Origin: an uncultured Nitrososphaerota archaeon
GTDB taxonomy: Archaea > Thermoproteota > Nitrososphaeria > Nitrososphaerales > CADDZS01
Direction: 5' to 3'
Assembly (NCBI GenBank): GCA_963799845.1
Contig: CAWCYI010000004.1
Location: forward strand, 672,001 to 736,000
DNA length: 64,000 nucleotides
Part shown: one piece after another, positions 27,255 to 36,836 of the stretch
Numbering within the stretch: position 1 is the first letter of the stretch
Layout of the letters: the number at the start of each line of letters is the position of its first letter
The notes under the pieces: model-generated
The model's database searches: none
The model's input: the letters and a program-made list of their open reading frames with translations, nothing else
What the model was told of the DNA's origin: nothing
Made by a program: the position numbers and the translations under genes

Positions 27255-28193
27255 TCATCTGTTATTCTGCTGAAGAATATAATATCCAGGATTGTTTTCG
27301 AAGGTCGTCTTGCAGCTCTCGCTGCAAAAATACGCTTTCTGACCGCCTAAGGAGGAAAAATATTCAGAGGATTCATCTACGGTCATTCCACAGACCGGAT
27401 CGACGAACACGGCTTTTCGGGTCTCTGAACTATTTACGACGTCTGTTTGGGGGACCGAAGTTGGATTCATCGTTCTCGAAATTTCGACTATCTCAGCCAT
27501 TATGCTTAGAGCTATTTCTTCCGCAGTTATTGATCTGATATAGATACCCGCAGGAGCCTTTATTCGGGACAGCGCGTCCACGGATAGTCCGGAAGACCTG
27601 AGGTAGGCGAGAACTTCAGTGGCCCGTTTCTTTCCCGCCACGATTCCAATGTAATGGACATCTAGTTCCGCAAGTTTTTCGGCATACTCCTGATCTCTTT
27701 CACCCATCGTTGCAATGACTGCAAATGTGTTTCTAGAATTGAAGCTCTTCTCCAAATCCTCCATCGATTTCAGAATAACATCCGCGTCCGGGAATCTTTC
27801 TTTCGTGGCCGTCCTGTCAATGATCGTCACGTTGAAATTAAGGGATTTTGCAAGTCCAGAGAGAGCGCTCGCGATCGGAACGTGCCCAAAAATCAATAGC
27901 TTCCTCTTTGGAAGATAAGGCTCCAGATAAACAGCCATGGTGCCCCCTTGGCACGTTGTCAAATCCAAAGTTCGGGAAGTACCTTCCTTGAGACATTCTA
28001 TAGCATTCGTTACGATTTCATTTTCAGTACAGTGACCTCCAACCCATCCCTCAATTGAGCCGTCTGAAAGGATGATTGCCTTATTCCCGGCTTTGATTGC
28101 AGTGGGACCGTTCGTCCTCAAGACCCCGACAACGACGAACGGAATGTCTTCAGAACCGAGCTCAAGCTGCCTGAGCAACAAGTCGTGCGTCAT
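27255..28193 (-). CDS. coxF: CoxF/XdhC family protein with a C-terminal YHS domain
   Basis: GWVGGHC, CQGGTMAVYLEP, PAGI...AEEIALSIMAEIV; tail DPVCGMTVD...YFCSESCK. Confidence 0.88.
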   Translation of the reverse strand: MTHDLLLRQLELGSEDIPFVVVGVLRTNGPTAIKAGNKAIILSDGSIEGWVGGHCTENEIVTNAIECLKEGTSRTLDLTTCQGGTMAVYLEPYLPKRKLLIFGHVPIASALSGLAKSLNFNVTIIDRTATKERFPDADVILKSMEDLEKSFNSRNTFAVIATMGERDQEYAEKLAELDVHYIGIVAGKKRATEVLAYLRSSGLSVDALSRIKAPAGIYIRSITAEEIALSIMAEIVEISRTMNPTSVPQTDVVNSSETRKAVFVDPVCGMTVDESSEYFSSLGGQKAYFCSESCKTTFENNPGYYILQQNNR

Positions 28194-28231
28194 CGGAAAT
28201 CTTCCAGAAATTAGGTTCGTTGAAGTATAAA

Positions 28232-29485
28232 TCAGTTGTCGATTGCCGGCCTCGTTTGGATCATTGATTTACGAGCTCCATCTTGTCTAGAGGCAGTTCC
28301 GAAAACGCTCCTGAACTTGTTTCTGTCGAAGAATATGTCTATGCCGGCGAAAACGTCGACGAGGGGGAGGGCAATTTTCATTCCTTCAGCTAAAGGCCGA
28401 TAATCGGGACTATCAGCCTGCGGATTCAGCCAGACCACTCTCCTTACCTGACGACCTATTCCCCGCAACCCATTCCTGAAAGTGTCGAGATCGCCCAATT
28501 CCCAACCGTCGCTTATTATGACGAAGACAGTGGAGGATCGAAGAACCCCCGAATATTTCAAAAGAAGTTCCATGAAAGCAGATCCGATTCGCGTCCCGCT
28601 GCTCCAGCTATCGACGTTCCTTGAAATGAGATCTGAAGATTCCCTCAGAGACTTTCCCTGCAGATATCTGTTCAGAGGTACTACTCTAGTACTGAATCCG
28701 AAGATGGTTGACCCGCGGATCGTATTGCTCATATGGTACACGATCTTGAGAATCTGGTTGCTGTAAATATCCATAGAACCGCTAATATCGCACAGGACGA
28801 CGATTCTAGATTTTGAGATCTTTTTCGATCTGAGTTCGATCTCAATTTCTCGGCCGCCTGTTTTCAAACTAGTTCTGAGCGTCCGTCGGAAATCAAGCTC
28901 ACGACCTTCGTACATTCCATAGCGCCGCCCCGGCAAAGTCGCGGTTACTCTTGCAAAACTTCTCAATCCGCGTTTTAGACGGAGTCTGTCCTTCGCTTCG
29001 TTCAGCTCGGCGAAACTTTTGCGGCTCTGCGTTTCAAGTGGGCTGTAAACTGCAAGAATTTTGTTATCCAGGTCGGCGCCCGGAGCTGCTGACTGGAACA
29101 TGCTTCCGGCGGTGACTCTTCCCCTGCCTATCCGGTTGGAATTTGGAGATTTTAGTGATCTCTCAATTTTTTCTCGTGGTAGACTAACCCTACCTAGAGG
29201 ATTTCTTCTTCCGGCTTTTGGATCAAGCCAGAACGTTCTGAAGAGAGTCTCAAACCGTTCGTAATCTTCAGACCTCTTCACAAGGGTTGTTCGGAGTACC
29301 GTGCGAAAGTCTTCCAATTTCGAAAGATCGGTTATCGGGATCGCTTCAGCCATATCTAGAGTCTCCGACGGAGTCACTTCGAACGATTCCATGCGAAGAA
29401 GCTGACTGAATCGAACGAGCCGATTCAAAAAAGGCACTTCTTGTTCGACCTTTGAATTAACTTCGTCAGAAAGATCAGCGGTCAT
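28232..29485 (-). CDS. coxE: CoxE VWA-domain protein
   Basis: LCDISGSM MIDAS motif, FSTR, WSSGTRIG, ISDGWE, WLNP. Confidence 0.93.
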   Translation of the reverse strand: MTADLSDEVNSKVEQEVPFLNRLVRFSQLLRMESFEVTPSETLDMAEAIPITDLSKLEDFRTVLRTTLVKRSEDYERFETLFRTFWLDPKAGRRNPLGRVSLPREKIERSLKSPNSNRIGRGRVTAGSMFQSAAPGADLDNKILAVYSPLETQSRKSFAELNEAKDRLRLKRGLRSFARVTATLPGRRYGMYEGRELDFRRTLRTSLKTGGREIEIELRSKKISKSRIVVLCDISGSMDIYSNQILKIVYHMSNTIRGSTIFGFSTRVVPLNRYLQGKSLRESSDLISRNVDSWSSGTRIGSAFMELLLKYSGVLRSSTVFVIISDGWELGDLDTFRNGLRGIGRQVRRVVWLNPQADSPDYRPLAEGMKIALPLVDVFAGIDIFFDRNKFRSVFGTASRQDGARKSMIQTRPAIDN

Positions 29486-30408
29486 TTCGGAGACTCTTCA
29501 AGGATGTTTCTGAGTCTTTCCTCGTCGAAAAGAGCGAATTCATCCGAATTTTTCAGTATGCAACTGAGAGTCTGTCTCGCCACAACGGGAGTTAGTCGAT
29601 TTTCTCCCAGGACTTGTAAAGCGGAAGCCCAGTCCAGTGTCTCGGAAGTTCCCGGCTTACGAATCACATCTTCGGACGAGCGTATTTTTTCTACGGCCGC
29701 AACGACATCCTGAGCAAGTTTTTCTTCGATCCCTGGAACTTTCAATTTCACTATTGCCAGCTCCTTCTCGAAAGATGGATATGACAGATATAGGTAGAGA
29801 CAGCGGCGTCTCAGGCCGTCGCCGAGCTCGCGAGTGTGGTTGGAAGTGATGATAATTATTGGGCGATGTTTTGTCTTAAATGTCCCAAGCTCTGGAACAG
29901 TCACTTGAAACTCGGCAAGGAGCTCGAGTAGAAATCCCTCGAATTCTTCGTCTGCCCTATCTATTTCGTCGATGAGTAAGACCGGCGGAAGGCTACCCTC
30001 GTCGAGTACGGCGTCAAGAAGTGGGCGCTTCAATAGAAATCTTTCGCCGAAAATCTCTTGCTCTAACTTATCGGGAGATGACTTCTGCTCTTCGATCCTT
30101 ATGTGCAGAAGCTGTCTCAAGTAATCCCATTCATAGATCGTTGAATTCGCGTCCAAGCCTTCGTAGCACTGCAAACGAATGAGCCTGGTACCCAGTCCCT
30201 CGCTAAGAACCTTCGCAATCTCAGTCTTTCCACATCCAGGATCTCCTTCGATCAACAATGGCTTGCGCAGTTTCAAGGAGAGAAAAACAGCCATTGCTAT
30301 CTGGGGGTCTGCGACATACTTAGCTTTCTCGAAAAGTCGCGTCAGATCTTCAATGGTTTCAATCCCGATAGTTTGATCGGGCCTATTCACAGGACTCCCT
30401 ACTTGCAA
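29482..30408 (-). CDS. coxD: CoxD MoxR-type AAA+ ATPase
   Basis: EGDPGCGKT, RLQCYEGLD, LLIDEIDRADEEFE, LRRRC. Confidence 0.94.
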   Translation of the reverse strand: MQVGSPVNRPDQTIGIETIEDLTRLFEKAKYVADPQIAMAVFLSLKLRKPLLIEGDPGCGKTEIAKVLSEGLGTRLIRLQCYEGLDANSTIYEWDYLRQLLHIRIEEQKSSPDKLEQEIFGERFLLKRPLLDAVLDEGSLPPVLLIDEIDRADEEFEGFLLELLAEFQVTVPELGTFKTKHRPIIIITSNHTRELGDGLRRRCLYLYLSYPSFEKELAIVKLKVPGIEEKLAQDVVAAVEKIRSSEDVIRKPGTSETLDWASALQVLGENRLTPVVARQTLSCILKNSDEFALFDEERLRNILEESPK

Positions 30409-30639
30409 TCTTCCAACCTATCCCTCCTCGAGCCATACCAATAGTATCATTCACGTTGTTCTAGAAAAATCTTCTATTTCAGTGGGACATGACTTTATCG
30501 GTTCTCCTTCAGCTCGAGCCCTCCATAGGGTTAGCATGTAGACGCAGTCAAAAACTTGTGAATGCTCGTCACGATAGTTTTATTCGCCTGTAGCCAATCG
30601 AACAGGCTTCGCTGACAAACGGGACGCCGCCAGCAATTT

Positions 30640-31005: not shown

Positions 31006-31073
31006 TGTCTTGTCTTTCTAGTGCGTCATCGCACTGACGGACGTCGCGCCGGTTGGTTTACCAGCCATACGTG

Positions 31074-32527
31074 TTAGATACTTTTGAATGTCGCTCCAGG
31101 ATTTGCCGGCGATCGGAATGCGCTTTTCTCTCTGCCTTTGGAATCAAACCAGATGGCGGTTGGTGTTCGGGTGACTTTGTATTTGTCAGCGAGACTGCCA
31201 CAGGCGTCCATTTCGATTGGTGCTTTTAGTATTGGAATTTTATCGCCGATTGCTTCATTTGCTGCTTTTAGGAAAGGCGGGCAATTGTGCGTGAGATGCC
31301 CAAGTGAGCATATCAAGTCACCATCAACAGTTACGTCAAACACGTCCCCTTTGTAGAAAGTTCGTTTTATTGATTCCAAATTCATGAAATAATAATCTTC
31401 ATCGAGCCACGACATTACTCTTATTTGATTGACAAATGGGGTGAAGGTGTTGCGATATTCTTGTTTGACATTCACACGACGCCCCATTATCACGTCTTCA
31501 CCAGCAGGTGTACCGAGTTGTAACGAACTCAGATAGCCAAGCTTGATTCCCGGAAATTGAAGTCCATGCGCAAGCTCTTTACTAACAGTTGATGATCTGT
31601 GGCCATGAATTTCCGGAGTTCCATCGCCTTCCAGATAGTTTTTCAGCAGTATTGATCCCATTCTGTTTGGAAGCGCCAGTTCCCGCCCGGCAAACGTTTT
31701 CCGATTGCACCTCTTCCAAAATGATGTGCTAAAAAACGCCCCAGCTTCATCGAATACACAAACAACCTAACACCGTCCTTCGTTGATTTAATGCTGTTTG
31801 ACACTTTCAGTCGTTTAAAATGCTGGGATAATTACAAGGCGCCCTCATATTCCAAATTGCTTTTTCCTAGACTGAATAGTACATCCGTCTTTTTTGGCAC
31901 AAATGTACCTTCTGCGAGATACCTTCCCGCAACAGCCAACATATCATCATTAAGCGGGATCCGCTGGACACGTCTGATGCATCTAACTCTGATTCCATCC
32001 CAGTAATGCTGTCTTTGTGAATATTCATGCGTTGTTTCGATAAATACTAGCGCTACCATTTCGGGCCGTGGTCTTGGAAGACAGAGGAATGCGCTCTCTG
32101 GAATATCAGCTGCTCTCGACCACATCTGACTCAGTTGAGAACCATTCCGCACAGGGATGGCAGCCATGTATTCATGGTCGGGCGTGGTGTTGGTAACTGC
32201 ATACGAACCATGTGTCTTACACCAATTATCTCGCCAGCGAACTCGTGTTTATTGATTGATTTCACGGAGCGAATATGCCATCTTCGGTTAGAACGAGGTC
32301 GCCAACCACCAAAGTTTCCACTGTTTTGATTCTAGAGGCAGTCATGATTTCCTCGCCTCTTGGAAAGCAAAGGGGGCACCCTCCTGCTGCGTCAATACTA
32401 GCAATTCGACACAAGGCAATTTGATCTTCAGAATTGATGTTCCCGAGTTTGCAATAAAGAATGCCTCGGATTGAGGTTCGGATGATACAGGAGCGGGACT
32501 TGATTTCCTTCCTTCCTCATCTGCCAT
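31074..32527 (-). pseudogene. Thioredoxin/glutaredoxin-fold gene interrupted by an intein (4 frameshifts, 1 in-frame stop)
   Basis: Reconstructed spliced product: ...ELLVLTQQEG-CPL|CPPFLKAANEAIGDKIPILKAPIEMDACGSLADKYKVTRTPTAIWFDSKGRE, with CxxC and the LA.KY.V...PT cis-Pro motif. Confidence 0.8.
31284..32369 (-). mobile_element. Intein with LAGLIDADG homing endonuclease (~360 aa, decayed)
   Basis: Block A CFPRGEEIMTASRIKTVETLVVGDLVLTEDG; block B TTPDH; block C VAGRYLAEG; block D FGRGAIGKRLP; block E LKNYLEGDG; block H STVSKELAHGLQ; blocks F/G GDVFDVTVDGDLICSLGHLTHN followed by Cys+1. Confidence 0.92.
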
Positions 32528-32724
32528 AACATACGAGAAAGACTCTCCGTTAAGAACAAGAAGGGCGACCGGCTCAGAGTTTATCTCAGAGCCTCTTGCA
32601 GGCATTAAGAGACGCTTAACTCGTCTAACCTGTCCCGGATAAACTCTGGAGCCTCCCTTGGTGGAATTCCTTTGGAAGCGTCGTGAGTCTGCCCTATCCC
32701 TTCCTTAGGTGTGTCAGGATAGCC

Positions 32725-32982
32725 TCAGGCTCTTTTTGAATTGGAATCCAGAGCTTTGTATCCATACCACTGCTGTGCAACTACCTTCCAGTCGGCGATC
32801 GGTCGACCTTCATTGCTGATTCTACGCCGCATCAAGAGCCTCTTTTTCATTCTATCGACTGCGTCCTGCGAAGAAAGCTCGTCCGTGTTGAACTTTCTTG
32901 CAAACCCATCTAATATTCTCGCGGAAGTAATTTTTACTTTTTTGCCAAGTTTGTACTGCACACTCGGAGGGAAAGACGTCAT
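32725..32982 (-). CDS. Basic hypothetical protein in the island
   Basis: 85-aa ATG ORF, co-oriented upstream of the thioredoxin pseudogene. Confidence 0.5.
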   Translation of the reverse strand: MTSFPPSVQYKLGKKVKITSARILDGFARKFNTDELSSQDAVDRMKKRLLMRRRISNEGRPIADWKVVAQQWYGYKALDSNSKRA

Positions 32983-33075: not shown

Positions 33076-33957
33076 ATGATACCGTCTTCGTTTGAGTACT
33101 ATTCGCCTACTACTCTTCCGGAAGCACTTTCTTTGCTCCAGAAATCTGGAGAGAACGCCAAGATCCTGGCCGGGGGGCAAAGCCTGATTCCTGTAATGAA
33201 ATTGAGACTGGGTTCACCGTCTCATCTCATTGATATCAATCGAGTTCAGGGATTGAATTACATCCGGGAATCTAATGGTGTTTTGCAGATAGGCGCAATG
33301 ACGAGAATGGCAGATCTTGAATCTTCCGATCTTCTCCGGTCGAAGTATGGTATTCTCCACGATGCGGCTATGAATATTGCAGATCCCTTGGTTCGTAACA
33401 GGGGCACTGCTGGTGGAAACATCAGCCACGCCGACCCAGCGAATGATCTTCCTGCAACAATGCTTGCTCTAGATGCAGAATTTCACGCCATCGGACCAAA
33501 TGGATCAAAGAAATTTAAGGCACAGGACTTTTTCGTTGATACGTTCACTACATCGCTGTCTCACGATGATATTCTGACAGAAATCCAAGTTCCCGCCCAC
33601 ACTCCCGGAAGTGGAGGAGCTTACTTGAAACTGGAAAAGAGAGTTGGAGATTTCGCAATTGTCGGAGTGGGTGTTCAAATCTCCTTGGATAGTAGGGGAA
33701 CATGTTTGAAAGCCGGAATCGGATTGACGGCCGTTGGGCCTACTGCGATAAAAGCGACGAATTCTGAAGAATATTTGGTAGGAAAAAATCTCGCGGACGT
33801 GAGTGTCCTTTCAAGAGCTGGAGTATTGGCATCGGAACAATCGAGTCCGACAACAGACCTGAGGGGCCCCCTGGAATACAAGAAAGAGATGGTAAAGATC
33901 TTCGTTATTCGTTCGCTGAAGGTAGCCCATAAGCGGACTGTTGGAGGGGGAATGTAA
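33076..33957 (+). CDS. coxM: CO dehydrogenase medium (FAD) subunit
   Basis: [40 protein letters not shown]. Confidence 0.95.
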
Positions 33958-33970
33958 GACGGTGAACAAG

Positions 33971-34459
33971 ATGAATATTTCCGTGAATGTAAACGGCCAG
34001 GATCGAAAGGCGGAAGTCGAACCCCGTTTACTTTTGGTCCATCTCTTGAGGGAAAAACTGAATCTCACGGGAACGCATATCGGTTGCGACACCTCAAATT
34101 GTGGAGCCTGTACTGTTCTGCTTGATGACAAAGCGGTAAAATCATGCACTGTCTTTGCGGTTCAGGCGAATGGTTCTAGGGTAACTACCGTGGAAGGCCT
34201 AGCGCAGGGAAGCAAGCTGCATCCAATTCAAGAAGGATTCTGGGAAAAACATGGGCTCCAGTGTGGCTTTTGCACTCCTGGTATGATGCTAGCCTCAGTT
34301 GAGTTACTTCGAAAGAATCCCAATCCGAGTGAAGAAGAGATCAGAAGAGGGATCTCGGGTAATCTTTGTAGATGCACTGGATACGTCAAGATAGTGGAAG
34401 CTGTTCAATACGCCGCTGAAAAGATGCGGCAGCAGCAGATTGAGGTGCCCGCGAGGTAA
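33971..34459 (+). CDS. coxS: CO dehydrogenase small (2Fe-2S) subunit
   Basis: [29 protein letters not shown]. Confidence 0.96.
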
Positions 34460-34478
34460 TCCAAGAGGGTAATCGAAA

Positions 34479-36836
34479 TTGGCAACAATCACAGAAACAC
34501 CAGTAATTAACGGACTAGGCCATCCGATTAAGCGGAAAGAGGACCCTTCACTGATACGCGGCAGAGGTCACTACGTCGACGATGTCAAGCTGGAGGGGAT
34601 GCTATTCCTCGACTTCGTCAGAAGTCCATACGCCCATGCTAAGATCAAGAGCATCAACGCAGAGAAGGCGAAAGCCCTTCCAGGAGTCGTGGCCGTCATC
34701 ACTGGAAATGACCTCAAGGGACTGGGTCTTGACTGGATTCCTACTCTCGCCTATGACAAAATGATGGTTTTGCCCACTGAGAAGGTGGTCTTTCAGATGC
34801 AGGAGGTGGTAGGTGTCGTGGCGGAGGACAGATACATTGCCGCAGACGCCGTTGCCCTAATTGACGTCGAATATGAGGCTCTTCCTGTAGTCTCAGATCC
34901 TTTCAAGGCACTTGAGAAGGATTCTCCGATAGTCCGACCCGACAAAGGGACAAACCACATTTTCCACTGGGAGGTTGGAGATCGAGCTACAACGGACAAG
35001 GCGATCGCCGATGCTGATGTAGTCGTAAAGCAGGATATGTACTATCCCAGGATCCATGTTTCTTACATGGAGACCTGCGGTTGCGTTGCGGATTTTGATC
35101 CGGTCGAAGGTCATCTGACTTTATGGATGACATCCCAAGCGCCTCATGCTGTAAGGACCGTAGCAGCGATGGTCACAAAAATTCCTGAGAACAAGATCCG
35201 GATAATCTCTCCCGATATTGGAGGAGGATTCGGTGGCAAAGTGTACGTCTATCCAGGGTATATTGTGGCAGCAGTTGGCTCGATAATAACCGGTCATCCA
35301 GTAAAGTGGATCAACGATCGCTCTGACGACCAGCCATCGACGGCCTTTGGAAGGGACTTCCACATGTCGGGCGAAATAGCGGCGAAAAAAGACGGAACGA
35401 TCACGGCAGTTAAGATAAAGACAATCAGCGATCATGGGGCTTTCCACGGAGATGCTAACCCGACTAAGTTTCCAGTTGGACTGTTCAGTATCGTCACCGG
35501 CTCGTACGATATGAAAAATGCTTTCTGCGAAGTCGATGCTGCATACACAAACAAGCCCCTCGGCGGGATCACCTATCGCTGTTCGTTCAGAGTTACCGAA
35601 GCCGTTTACATCATCGAAAGAATGGTTGACATCCTCGCCCACAAAATCGGGATGGACCCCGCGGAATTGAGAATGAAGAATTTCATTCCCAAGGAAAAGT
35701 TTCCGTACAAATCAGTCCTCGGCTGGACTTATGATAGCGGAGACTACGCTCCCGCATTGAAAAAGGCGATGGACAGGATCGGGTACGACGATCTACGAAG
35801 GGAGCAGGAGGAGAAAAGGAAGAAGGGTGAATTGATGGGGATTGGTATCAGTAGCTTCACCGAAATCGTTGGCGCTGGGCCGTCGCACGATTTCGACATT
35901 CTTGGGTTGAAGATGTTCGACAGCGCTGAAATCAGGATCCATCCAACCGGCAAAGTGATCGCGAGATTTGGAACGAAGTCACAGGGTCAAGGACATCAGA
36001 CGACATATGCCCAGATTATCGCTGAGGAGCTGGGAATCCCGACTGATGACATTGTCGTCGAAGAGGGCGACACTGATACCGCTCCTTATGGTCTCGGGAC
36101 ATACGCTAGCAGAAGTACTCCTACGGCGGGTGCTGCGGCATCAATGGCTTCACGAAAGATTCGCGACAAGGCAAAGAAAATTGCAGCGTACCTGCTTGAA
36201 GCCAGAGAGGAAGATCTCGTCTGGGAAAGGGGCAGGTTCTACGTGAAAGGCTCTCCTGACCGCGGTAAGACTATCCAAGAGATCGCTTTTGCCGCGTACA
36301 CGAATAATCCTCCCGGCGTGGAGGCGGGCCTCGAAGCCGTTGACTATTACGATCCTCCCAACATGACGTTTCCATTCGGGAGTTACATCTGCGTGGTCGA
36401 TATCGATAGGGGAACCGGCGAAGCAAAAGTTAGGCGTTTCATCGCTGTCGACGACTGCGGCAACATCATAAACCCGCTAATCGTTGACGGACAGATTCAG
36501 GGAGCCCTGACCATGGGGTTCGGAACGTCCTTCCTCGAAGAGATCAAGTACGATGAAGACGGTAACGTCTATGGAGGGAACTTTATGGACTACCTGATTC
36601 CTACAGCCGTAGAAACTCCAAAGTGGGAGACCGACAAGACAGTGACGCCATCACCTCATCACCCGCTCGGCCTGAAAGGAGTTGGAGAATCTGCCACGGT
36701 TGGTTCCCCAGCGGCTTTCGTCAATGCAGTCGTTGACGCCCTAGCCCACGTTGGAATAACTCAAATCGAAATGCCCCTGAATCCTTGGAAGATCCGGAAA
36801 GCCCTAGAAGAGAAAGGACTTGCGTTAGAAAGTTAG
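34479..36836 (+). CDS. coxL: Form I aerobic Mo-Cu CO dehydrogenase large subunit
   Basis: GGGFGGK, active-site ITYRCSFRVTEA (form I AYXCSFR variant, Cu-ligand Cys kept), QGQGHQTT, GTYASRS, KGVGE; MSL gene order. Confidence 0.93.
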   Translation: MATITETPVINGLGHPIKRKEDPSLIRGRGHYVDDVKLEGMLFLDFVRSPYAHAKIKSINAEKAKALPGVVAVITGNDLKGLGLDWIPTLAYDKMMVLPTEKVVFQMQEVVGVVAEDRYIAADAVALIDVEYEALPVVSDPFKALEKDSPIVRPDKGTNHIFHWEVGDRATTDKAIADADVVVKQDMYYPRIHVSYMETCGCVADFDPVEGHLTLWMTSQAPHAVRTVAAMVTKIPENKIRIISPDIGGGFGGKVYVYPGYIVAAVGSIITGHPVKWINDRSDDQPSTAFGRDFHMSGEIAAKKDGTITAVKIKTISDHGAFHGDANPTKFPVGLFSIVTGSYDMKNAFCEVDAAYTNKPLGGITYRCSFRVTEAVYIIERMVDILAHKIGMDPAELRMKNFIPKEKFPYKSVLGWTYDSGDYAPALKKAMDRIGYDDLRREQEEKRKKGELMGIGISSFTEIVGAGPSHDFDILGLKMFDSAEIRIHPTGKVIARFGTKSQGQGHQTTYAQIIAEELGIPTDDIVVEEGDTDTAPYGLGTYASRSTPTAGAAASMASRKIRDKAKKIAAYLLEAREEDLVWERGRFYVKGSPDRGKTIQEIAFAAYTNNPPGVEAGLEAVDYYDPPNMTFPFGSYICVVDIDRGTGEAKVRRFIAVDDCGNIINPLIVDGQIQGALTMGFGTSFLEEIKYDEDGNVYGGNFMDYLIPTAVETPKWETDKTVTPSPHHPLGLKGVGESATVGSPAAFVNAVVDALAHVGITQIEMPLNPWKIRKALEEKGLALES

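What the first reader, a model, noticed from the sequence alone, without database searches (positions are those of the whole stretch)
31074..32527. Intein inserted inside the CxxC active site of a thioredoxin-fold protein: a candidate natural redox-trap intein
Seen: stitching four minus-strand frames gives N-extein ...LLVLTQQEG-C-P-L (Cys at 32376-78). An intein follows, from CFPRGEEIMT (Cys1 at 32367-69) through TTPDH and two LAGLIDADG-like motifs to ...LGHLTHN (Asn at 31284-86). The C-extein is CPPFLKAANEA...LADKYKVTRTPTAIWFD. Splicing would join CPL and C into a CPLC active site. Before splicing, the precursor also reads CPLC, using the intein's own nucleophile Cys1. Established: a Cys(-3)-Cys1 disulfide blocks splicing until it is reduced, as shown for the engineered CPGC trap on a DnaE intein and for the Pyrococcus abyssi MoaA intein. 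Most inteins sit in replication/repair ATPases and nucleotide-metabolism enzymes. Inference: the intact ancestor would be an oxidoreductase whose maturation is gated by the redox state of its own active-site motif. I do not recall thioredoxin as a catalogued intein host, but that needs a search. This copy is broken.
Basis: partly seen in the sequence, partly recalled or inferred. Interest (0 to 1): 0.92.

Follow-up and report, generated by a model that had tools for sequence, protein, structure and literature searches.

The report
Dead intein inside a thioredoxin active site
A decayed self-splicing protein element (an intein) sits exactly inside the two-cysteine active site of a small thioredoxin-like gene that is itself a pseudogene, and an intact version found in a metagenome could be used to test whether such an enzyme's maturation is switched by redox state.

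Summary
On the minus strand at 31018-32527 lies a small thioredoxin-fold gene. A 1,086-nt LAGLIDADG-type class-1 intein (32369-31284) interrupts its CPxC motif between Leu(-1) and the second Cys: ...VLTQQEG-CPL|CFPRGEE...TTPDH...GHLTHN|CPPFLKAANEA...

The copy is dead, with six lesions. There is one frameshift in the N-extein, three frameshifts plus one in-frame TAA in the intein, and one frameshift in the C-extein. Contigs from three other runs of the same study show the same sequence. Neighbouring cox genes are intact.

A congener carries an intein-free allele (EG-CTHC-PSFLKAANEAIGDK). The extra DNA in the window corresponds to the intein.

Intein-free relatives pass Pfam thioredoxin thresholds and model as a thioredoxin fold. 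One intact precursor with the same insertion point exists in a public metagenome protein set (P0002, 521 aa, ...GCPG|C...VVHN|C...).

Cys(-3) is common among this intein's relatives (34 of 265). The redox-trap idea is chemically plausible but untested, and it is irrelevant in this genome.

I found no paper describing a natural thioredoxin intein. I class this as a new host for a known kind of element, of moderate interest.

The parts
32381..32527 (-). N-extein, first frame: ATG at 32525-32527 through ...KLPCVELLVLTQQE
   Evidence: It aligns to the strand before the CPxC motif of intein-free relatives.
32379..32380 (-). Lesion 1: the Gly codon is reduced to two bases (-1 frameshift), one codon before the active site
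   Evidence: Read. Relatives read QE[GS]-CPxC.
32370..32378 (-). Cys(-3)-Pro-Leu, the last three N-extein codons (first half of CPxC)
31284..32369 (-). Intein, 1,086 nt. It runs from Cys1 (CFPRGEEIMT), through block B TTPDH and LAGLIDADG motifs LAVAGRYLAEG and LLKNYLEGDG, to ...GHLTHN. It is broken by frameshifts near 32272, 32218 and 31680-31688 and by an in-frame TAA at 31832-31834.
   Evidence: tblastn to intact inteins P0002, P0151 and P0018; phmmer; ORF table.
31125..31283 (-). C-extein, first part: Cys+1 (31281-31283) then PPFLKAANEAIGDKIPILKAPIEMDACGSLADKYKVTRTPTAIWFDSKGREK
   Evidence: 75% identical to P0003 and 51% to P0038. Homology with the intein-free alleles starts at or within two bases of the Cys+1 codon: 31283 with L003 and 31285 with L044.
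31123..31124 (-).
   Evidence: Relatives read GKEK[KM]R[VI]PIAGKSW in one frame.
31018..31122 (-). C-extein, last part: RIPIAGKSWSDIQKYLTRMAGK... and the TAG stop at 31018-31020
32530..32982 (-). Conserved upstream stretch, also broken into three frames. In a congener (L009) it is one 206-aa ORF running into the Trx N-terminus. Whether it belongs to the same gene is open.
   Evidence: No Pfam or NCBIfam match.

Best explanation
This is the wreck of a mobile class-1 intein (Hint splicing domain plus LAGLIDADG homing endonuclease). It homed into the DNA encoding the CPxC active site of a small, roughly 115-130-aa thioredoxin-fold protein in a Nitrososphaerales archaeon. It lies between the third and fourth residues of the motif. 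Shown: the insertion point, the intein motifs, the intein-free allele, the Trx-fold nature of the host family, and that the whole gene is now a pseudogene with six lesions. Inferred from the textbook intein mechanism: in an intact allele such as P0002, Cys1 would form the thioester and Cys+1 would take over the N-extein. The terminal Asn would then cyclise, and the spliced product would regain a CPxC site (CPLC here). Also inferred: before splicing, extein Cys(-3) and intein Cys1 form a CPxC of their own. This could close into a disulfide and hold the precursor unspliced until it is reduced. I put about 0.35 on that gating being real and used in intact alleles. In this genome the element does nothing.
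For: Motifs and coordinates were read directly. The junction-spanning fragment hits intact precursor P0002 at E 5.8e-20, with the alignment crossing HN|C into a homologous C-extein. tblastn of P0002, P0151 and P0018 covers Cys1 to Asn across three frames. P0002 passes Pfam Intein_splicing (36.9 bits, cutoff 35.8) and LAGLIDADG_3 (27.4 bits, cutoff 22.5). Its model has a confident intein, and its best matches are TliVMA, PI-SceI and PI-PfuI inteins. For the host family, P0038 scores Thioredoxin_2 31.9 bits (cutoff 27) and P0140 scores Thioredoxin 34.8 bits (cutoff 23.5). The family profile hits solved Trx-fold proteins, best 1j08 at 1.1e-7. The P0038 model matches E. coli thioredoxin at TM 0.75/0.82, with CPYC between strand 25-30 and helix 37-51. 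The joined window exteins score 125.3 bits contiguously, against at most 8.0 for 200 shuffles. The intein-free allele L044 has 83% DNA identity over 2,996 nt of flank. It bridges in 32 nt what takes 1,116 nt in the window and reads EG-CTHC-PSF. On pseudogene status, contigs of runs X2, X3 and X4 cover five lesion sites with 0 differences and 0 gaps. Eight neighbouring ORFs are open with full-length Pfam matches.
Against: Taken alone, each window fragment fails Pfam's curated cut-offs: Hint_2 21.6 bits (cutoff 28.4), Intein_splicing 13.6 (cutoff 35.8), Thioredoxin 14.6 (cutoff 23.5). The runs that reproduce the lesions come from one study, and X1 may be the assembly's source. X4 reaches the Gly-codon lesion only within 3 nt of its contig end. 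Every copy of the host gene found in this genus is broken (G000, two loci of G003, L044, L045). I therefore cannot show that the intein ever sat in a working gene of this lineage. Against redox gating: Cys(-3) occurs in 34 of 265 mapped relatives, mostly in metal-binding CxxC motifs. It may simply mark conserved motifs that are good homing sites.
Confidence: 0.9

Rival explanations
1. Adaptive redox trap. In intact alleles the Cys(-3)-Cys1 disulfide is a selected switch, so the oxidoreductase matures only under reducing conditions.
For: Cys(-3) and Cys1 are three residues apart in the window and in P0002. P0002 reads CPG|C, the very motif used for the engineered trap. P. abyssi MoaA is a natural precedent. 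The intein lies at the N-terminus of the active-site helix of a Trx fold.
Against: No experiment exists and no tool can test it. The same CxxC precursor geometry recurs in zinc fingers, radical-SAM, Mrp-type and oxoacid oxidoreductase hosts, so it is not specific to a redox enzyme. Only one clear intact allele was found, which gives no sign of selection. The P0002 model is unreliable in the exteins, with pLDDT below 60.
Confidence: 0.35
2. Incidental geometry. The homing endonuclease targets DNA that encodes conserved CxxC motifs, and Cys(-3) comes along without regulatory use.
For: Cys occurs at -3 in 34 of 265 relatives, against 1-9 at positions -1, -2, -4, -5 and -6, across unrelated hosts. 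The same genome holds an intact intein in a C2H2 zinc finger reading CPH|C. The closest intein to the window's is P0151, in a non-Trx host reading ACKY|C.
Against: Even an incidental CxxC can form a disulfide in vitro, as in MoaA. Enrichment could equally reflect selection for traps. The 305 proteins are a biased sample, being hits to two queries.
Confidence: 0.55
3. Assembly artefact. The gene is intact and the frameshifts are consensus errors.
For: Two of the shifts are single-base losses next to short homopolymers. The genome is a 9-contig MAG.
Against: Contigs of three other runs agree base for base over five lesion sites. One lesion is a TAA substitution, not an indel. Neighbouring genes are open. 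Relatives are broken at different places.
Confidence: 0.03
4. Not an intein, but a bacterial-intein-like or other Hint domain fused to a Trx-like protein.
For: The fragments alone do not reach Pfam cut-offs.
Against: TxxH, HN|C, two LAGLIDADG motifs, an intein-free allele and contiguous exteins are all present.
Confidence: 0.01

Closest known systems
Pyrococcus abyssi MoaA intein (natural extein-Cys to Cys1 disulfide trap)
   Same: A class-1 archaeal intein with a Cys in the N-extein that can bond Cys1 and block step 1 until reduced (review PMC10663303, passages read). Radical-SAM hosts with CX3CX2|C are among this intein's relatives.
   Different: In MoaA the host motif is an Fe-S-binding radical-SAM motif. 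Here it is the catalytic dithiol of a Trx-fold oxidoreductase. Here nothing has been tested, and the window copy is dead.
Engineered CPGC redox trap on the Ssp DnaE intein (Callahan et al. 2011)
   Same: The precursor motif is Cys(-3)-x-x-Cys1. P0002 carries exactly CPG|C. The review states that Pro-Gly was chosen after a thioredoxin motif (PMC11766414, passages read).
   Different: That trap was engineered and this one is natural. The original paper (PMC3087850) is not held, so its details come second hand.
Pab PolII intein Cys1-Cys+1 disulfide
   Same: Both have Cys1 and Cys+1, so a second possible disulfide exists here as well (PMC5874633, passages read).
   Different: The cysteine pair and the host are different.
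Homing-endonuclease-bearing archaeal inteins (TliVMA, PI-PfuI, PI-SceI)
   Same: Hint plus LAGLIDADG architecture. The P0002 model matches 7qsu at E 7.5e-20 and 1dq3 at 2.7e-11.
   Different: Sequence identity is 11-15%. The hosts are ATPases and ribonucleotide reductase rather than Trx.
Archaeal glutaredoxin-like protein / protein disulfide oxidoreductase (1j08, 1a8l) and thioredoxins
   Same: The extein family profile hits them at 1.1e-7 and 1.3e-6. The P0038 model is a Trx fold.
   Different: Scores are far below NCBIfam equivalog cut-offs. The family has its own signature (PxExxxC...KYKVxRTPT...PIAGKSW) and no assigned function.

Membership tests
Intein (class 1, with LAGLIDADG homing endonuclease) | Nucleophile Cys/Ser/Thr at intein position 1 | tested here: met
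   Cys at 32367-32369, aligned to Cys1 of P0002, P0151 and P0018.
Intein (class 1, with LAGLIDADG homing endonuclease) | Block B TxxH | tested here: met
   TTPDH aligned to TTLDH (P0002) and ATPEH (P0151). The role of the motif is taken from PMC10663303.
Intein (class 1, with LAGLIDADG homing endonuclease) | C-terminal His-Asn followed by Cys/Ser/Thr at +1 | tested here: met
   GHLTHN|C at 31281-31298, aligned to VVHN|C.
Intein (class 1, with LAGLIDADG homing endonuclease) | Two LAGLIDADG motifs between the splicing halves | tested here: met
   LAVAGRYLAEG and LLKNYLEGDG align to VIGYYLAEG and LFEAYINGDG of P0002. P0002 passes LAGLIDADG_3.
Intein (class 1, with LAGLIDADG homing endonuclease) | Exteins are colinear with an uninterrupted homologue (intein-free allele) | tested here: met
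   L044 reads EGCTHCPSF. The window's 1,084 extra nt match the intein. The joined exteins score 125.3 bits contiguously.
Intein (class 1, with LAGLIDADG homing endonuclease) | Curated profile score (Pfam Hint_2 / Intein_splicing) | tested here: not met
   The window fragments score 21.6 bits (cutoff 28.4) and 13.6 bits (cutoff 35.8). These are pieces of a broken gene. The intact relative P0002 passes Intein_splicing.
Intein (class 1, with LAGLIDADG homing endonuclease) | One open frame with the host gene, and protein splicing | tested here: not met
   There are six lesions. This is a pseudogene remnant of an intein, not a working member. Splicing itself is not testable here.
Thioredoxin-fold CxxC oxidoreductase | Profile match to thioredoxin families | tested here: inconclusive
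   The window C-extein alone scores 14.6 bits (cutoff 23.5). Relatives P0038 and P0140 pass. The joined exteins score 125.3 bits against the profile of those relatives.
Thioredoxin-fold CxxC oxidoreductase | Trx fold with CxxC at the N-terminus of the helix following a central strand | tested here: met
   Tested on the relative P0038, not on the window's protein. pLDDT is 74 and TM to E. coli Trx is 0.75/0.82, with CPYC at 34-37 between E25-30 and H37-51.
Thioredoxin-fold CxxC oxidoreductase | Both active-site cysteines present after splicing | tested here: met
   CPL + C gives CPLC, and relatives read CPYC, CPHC and CTHC. Oxidoreductase activity is not testable.
Redox-trap (disulfide-gated) intein | Cys at -3 and Cys at 1 | tested here: met
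Redox-trap (disulfide-gated) intein | Disulfide forms in the precursor and splicing depends on reduction | not testable with these tools
   The extein parts of the P0002 model are low confidence, and no coordinates are returned.

The most novel reading that the evidence does not exclude
Intact alleles such as P0002 (CPG|C...HN|C) are natural self-gated oxidoreductases. The precursor's own CPxC, built from extein Cys(-3) and intein Cys1, behaves as a thioredoxin-like redox pair. Splicing, and hence birth of the real active site, happens only when the cell is reducing. More broadly, a clade of archaeal LAGLIDADG inteins specialises on the x2|C position of CxxC motifs, and splicing in this clade is generally controlled by thiol redox state or metal binding. 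The hosts are Trx, zinc fingers, radical SAM, Mrp-type and oxoacid oxidoreductase proteins.
Probability: 0.3. Interest if true: 0.75.

Novelty: new member of a known kind. Interest (0 to 1): 0.55.

Why it matters
Disulfide-gated splicing is known from an engineered CPGC trap and a few natural cases. A thioredoxin-fold enzyme whose catalytic CPxC is split by an intein, so that the precursor carries a look-alike CPxC using the intein's nucleophile, would be a very direct natural test case. The window's copy cannot be used because it is dead. It did, however, lead to an intact 521-aa allele (P0002) that can be synthesised and assayed. It also points to a wider, countable pattern: Cys(-3) occurs in 34 of 265 relatives. 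This bears on whether inteins are only parasites of conserved motifs or are also redox or metal sensors.

Tried and rejected
1. I first thought G003's 'EG-RIH-CPPF' was a scar of imprecise intein loss. I rejected this because L044 reads EG-CTH-C, so RIH is CTH with a Cys-to-Arg change.

2. A search for longer proteins with the intein-free family alignment A1 found none. The tool itself calls this weak evidence.

3. The search for related loci with P0002 found no relative in genome contigs or metagenome contigs, so the genomic context of the intact allele is unknown.

4. Six-frame search of A1 in 401 genomes of the class gave matches in 52 genomes, counting G000. Apart from G000's two matches, they were uninterrupted thioredoxin-like matches of 25-34 bits. 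G000's two were the C-extein match in the window and a second one on C6 with an in-frame TGA. No match other than the window's began at the second Cys. 'Not found in those searched' is all this shows.

5. I considered P0268 (...AILVVAEG-CPY|C...VVHN|C-EEMKKRL...) as a second intact Trx-type host at the same site. Its spliced exteins score 8.3 bits, the same as the best shuffle, and Pfam finds no Trx domain. It remains a candidate by motif only.

6. The P0002 precursor model has extein pLDDT of 31-59, so it says nothing about a pre-formed Trx fold or Cys-Cys distance.

7. No RNA holder was listed for the stretch.

8. The upstream 206-aa ORF of L009 had no Pfam or NCBIfam match and no usable Atlas hit. 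The Atlas structure search did not complete.

9. The literature searches found no natural thioredoxin or glutaredoxin intein. They cover only the held CC-licensed PMC papers and bioRxiv. Supplements were closed and not consulted, and intein census tables in supplements could list such a host. Callahan et al. 2011 is not held.

Full report
WHAT IS THERE

On the minus strand the window reads as follows. The N-extein is ...KIKLPCVELLVLTQQE, followed by a Gly codon that has lost one base (32379-32380). Then come Cys-Pro-Leu (32378-32370) and CFPRGEEIMT... from Cys1 (32369-32367). Further on are TTPDH, two LAGLIDADG motifs and ...GHLTHN (Asn 31286-31284). The C-extein starts at Cys+1 (31283-31281) and reads PPFLKAANEAIGDKIPILKAPIEMDACGSLADKYKVTRTPTAIWFDSKGREK.

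Two points of the description need correction. The C-extein has a further -1 frameshift near 31123-31124. After it the protein continues as RIPIAGKSWSDIQKYLTRMAGK... to a TAG at 31018-31020, as relatives show. The intein itself is broken by three frameshifts (near 32272, 32218 and 31680-31688) and one in-frame TAA (31832-31834). That makes six lesions in about 1.5 kb.

IS IT MORE THAN CHANCE?

Each fragment on its own scores below Pfam's cut-offs: Hint_2 21.6 bits, Intein_splicing 13.6 bits, Thioredoxin 14.6 bits. The 230-aa fragment that spans the C-terminal junction was scored against 1.84 billion representative proteins. It gave 194 hits at E <= 0.001.

After the window's own product, the best hit is P0002 (521 aa, E 5.8e-20). 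Its alignment runs from the endonuclease domain through HN|C into a homologous C-extein. P0002 is an intact precursor reading ...VLAYVSHVG-CPG|CLPTGQEII...TTLDH...VVHN|C-ELMGAELEKKVAGKVPIVELPVENRSCDGLLDHLKVDSTP....

tblastn of P0002, P0151 and P0018 against the region tiles the intein from Cys1 to Asn over the three frames. P0002 passes Pfam Intein_splicing and LAGLIDADG_3. Its AlphaFold model has a confident intein, and its best structural matches are TliVMA, PI-SceI and PI-PfuI.

THE HOST PROTEIN

Short hits are intein-free relatives. P0038 reads ...VFTQES-CPYC-PPGLKAAKES..., P0140 has CPHC and P0024 has CPYC. P0038 and P0140 pass Pfam's thioredoxin thresholds.

A profile of five such proteins (A1) hits 90 solved chains at E <= 0.01. 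The best are the archaeal glutaredoxin-like protein 1j08 and the disulfide oxidoreductase 1a8l, followed by thioredoxins.

The P0038 model has pLDDT 74 and superposes on E. coli thioredoxin at TM 0.75/0.82. Its CPYC lies between a strand and the following helix.

The window's exteins were joined in a script with X at the two breaks. They align to A1 as one stretch across the junction at 125.3 bits, while the best of 200 shuffles scores 8.0. P0002 with its intein removed scores 54.5 bits.

INTEIN-FREE ALLELES AND DECAY

A metagenome contig, L044, shares the flanking cox gene and 83% DNA identity over 2,996 nt with the window. It reads ...EG-CTHC-PSFLKAANEAIGDK... with no intein. It bridges in 32 nt what takes 1,116 nt in the window, and the difference matches the 1,086-nt intein.

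A same-genus genome, G003, has the syntenic gene as ...EG-RIHC-PPF..., that is CTHC with the first Cys lost. A record whose sequence is identical to G003's over this gene is titled Nitrososphaerales archaeon. G003 also holds a second, broken copy (L009).

L044 has a stop and a frameshift just upstream of the motif. So the host gene is decaying in every member of the genus that I could see, with or without the intein.

The lesions in the window are not an artefact of one assembly. Contigs of three further runs (same study) cover the C-extein shift, the shift near 31685, the TAA and the two shifts near 32218 and 32272, with no difference and no gap. The Gly-codon lesion is reached only at the very end of one contig.

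The neighbours are all open with full-length matches. They are coxF/E/D-like genes on the minus strand and coxM/S/L-like genes on the plus strand.

HOW RARE IS IT?

P0002 is a singleton cluster. The other proteins found with it carry related inteins in other hosts. One is P0002. The other is P0106 (475 aa), a thioredoxin at Pfam 60.2 bits whose intein sits one position earlier, W|C...HN|CYPC. P0106 is also a near-singleton.

P0268 reads CPY|C in what looks like a minimal glutaredoxin-like protein, but no score supports that. The search for longer proteins and the two contig scans with P0002 found nothing. Among 401 genomes of the class, the only match starting at the second Cys was the window itself.

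MECHANISM AND THE REDOX-TRAP IDEA

All catalytic motifs of a class-1 intein are recognisable, so an intact allele should splice by the standard four steps and regenerate CPxC. This follows from established intein chemistry as summarised in PMC10663303 (passages read).

The precursor does read Cys(-3)-x-x-Cys1. In P0002 the motif is literally CPGC, the motif that Callahan et al. engineered after a thioredoxin motif (PMC11766414, passages read). P. abyssi MoaA is a natural case of an N-extein Cys trapping Cys1. A disulfide trap is therefore chemically plausible.

There is a caveat. I could map the N-junction in 265 of the fetched proteins. Among these, 34 have Cys at -3, against 1 to 9 at each of the other five positions examined. 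These are mostly metal-binding motifs: radical-SAM CX3CX2|C, Mrp-type CPH|C, zinc ribbons, and seven clusters of oxoacid:ferredoxin oxidoreductase beta reading WCPG|C. The same genome holds an intact intein in a C2H2 zinc finger reading CPH|C.

The CxxC geometry is thus a habit of this intein clade, not a speciality of the thioredoxin host. It may reflect homing into conserved motifs rather than selection for a switch. I give the adaptive trap about 0.35. The sample is biased, being hits to two queries, so the ratio is descriptive only.

NOVELTY

Eight literature searches found no natural thioredoxin or glutaredoxin intein. They covered the held CC-licensed PMC papers and bioRxiv. Supplements were closed and the key 2011 paper is not held.

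I class the element as a new host for a known kind of element. The window's copy is a pseudogene of no present function. Its value is as a pointer to P0002, which makes the trap hypothesis testable at the bench.

Noticed in passing
L002 1441-3009 (minus), = G000 contig C6: The same genome holds an intact 522-aa ORF with an intein inside the CxxC of a C2H2-type zinc finger...GVFECPH|CVLPDTLI...NAIVHN|CGRRFPTDIQLSMHTKLH. It occupies the same x2|C position as the thioredoxin pseudogene. It is only 28% identical to the window's intein over 111 aa.
   Followed up: partly
proteins P0287-P0293 and others: Cys at -3 occurs in 34 of 265 mapped relatives of this intein. These include seven clusters of 2-oxoacid:ferredoxin oxidoreductase beta subunit reading WCPG|C, radical-SAM CX3CX2|C hosts and an Mrp-type CPH|C host.
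   Followed up: partly
P0106 (475 aa, metagenome protein): A bona fide thioredoxin (Pfam 60.2 bits) with an intein one position before the active site: DFYAKW|C...VHN|CYPCKVLEP. This is a second, different insertion site in a Trx-fold host. Its cluster has 2 members on 1 contig.
   Followed up: partly
window 32530-32982 (minus); L009 710-1330: The stretch upstream of the Trx gene is conserved (73% DNA identity to a congener). It is broken into three frames in the window, but in L009 it is one 206-aa ORF that runs into the Trx N-terminus. It has no Pfam or NCBIfam match and no usable Atlas hit.
   Followed up: partly
window 27255-30408 (minus) and 33076-36836 (plus): The pseudogene lies in the divergent gap of an intact molybdenum-hydroxylase cluster. 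XdhC/CoxF-like (with a YHS domain), VWA CoxE-like and AAA CoxD-like genes face coxM, coxS and coxL-like genes. The same coxM neighbour is kept in G003 and L044.
   Followed up: partly
P0003 (119 aa, metagenome protein): A close relative (75% identical to the window's C-extein) in which both active-site cysteines are replaced (ALPALPAFLKA...). This suggests loss of the redox site in another lineage, or another pseudogene.
   Followed up: no
G000:C6:171420-171653 (minus): A second thioredoxin-like match in the same genome, with an in-frame TGA inside a 93-aa open frame.
   Followed up: no
L044 4311-6144 against window 30482-30483: The congener contig carries about 1.8 kb between two blocks that are adjacent in the window, so there is an insertion or deletion difference downstream of the Trx gene.
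   Followed up: no
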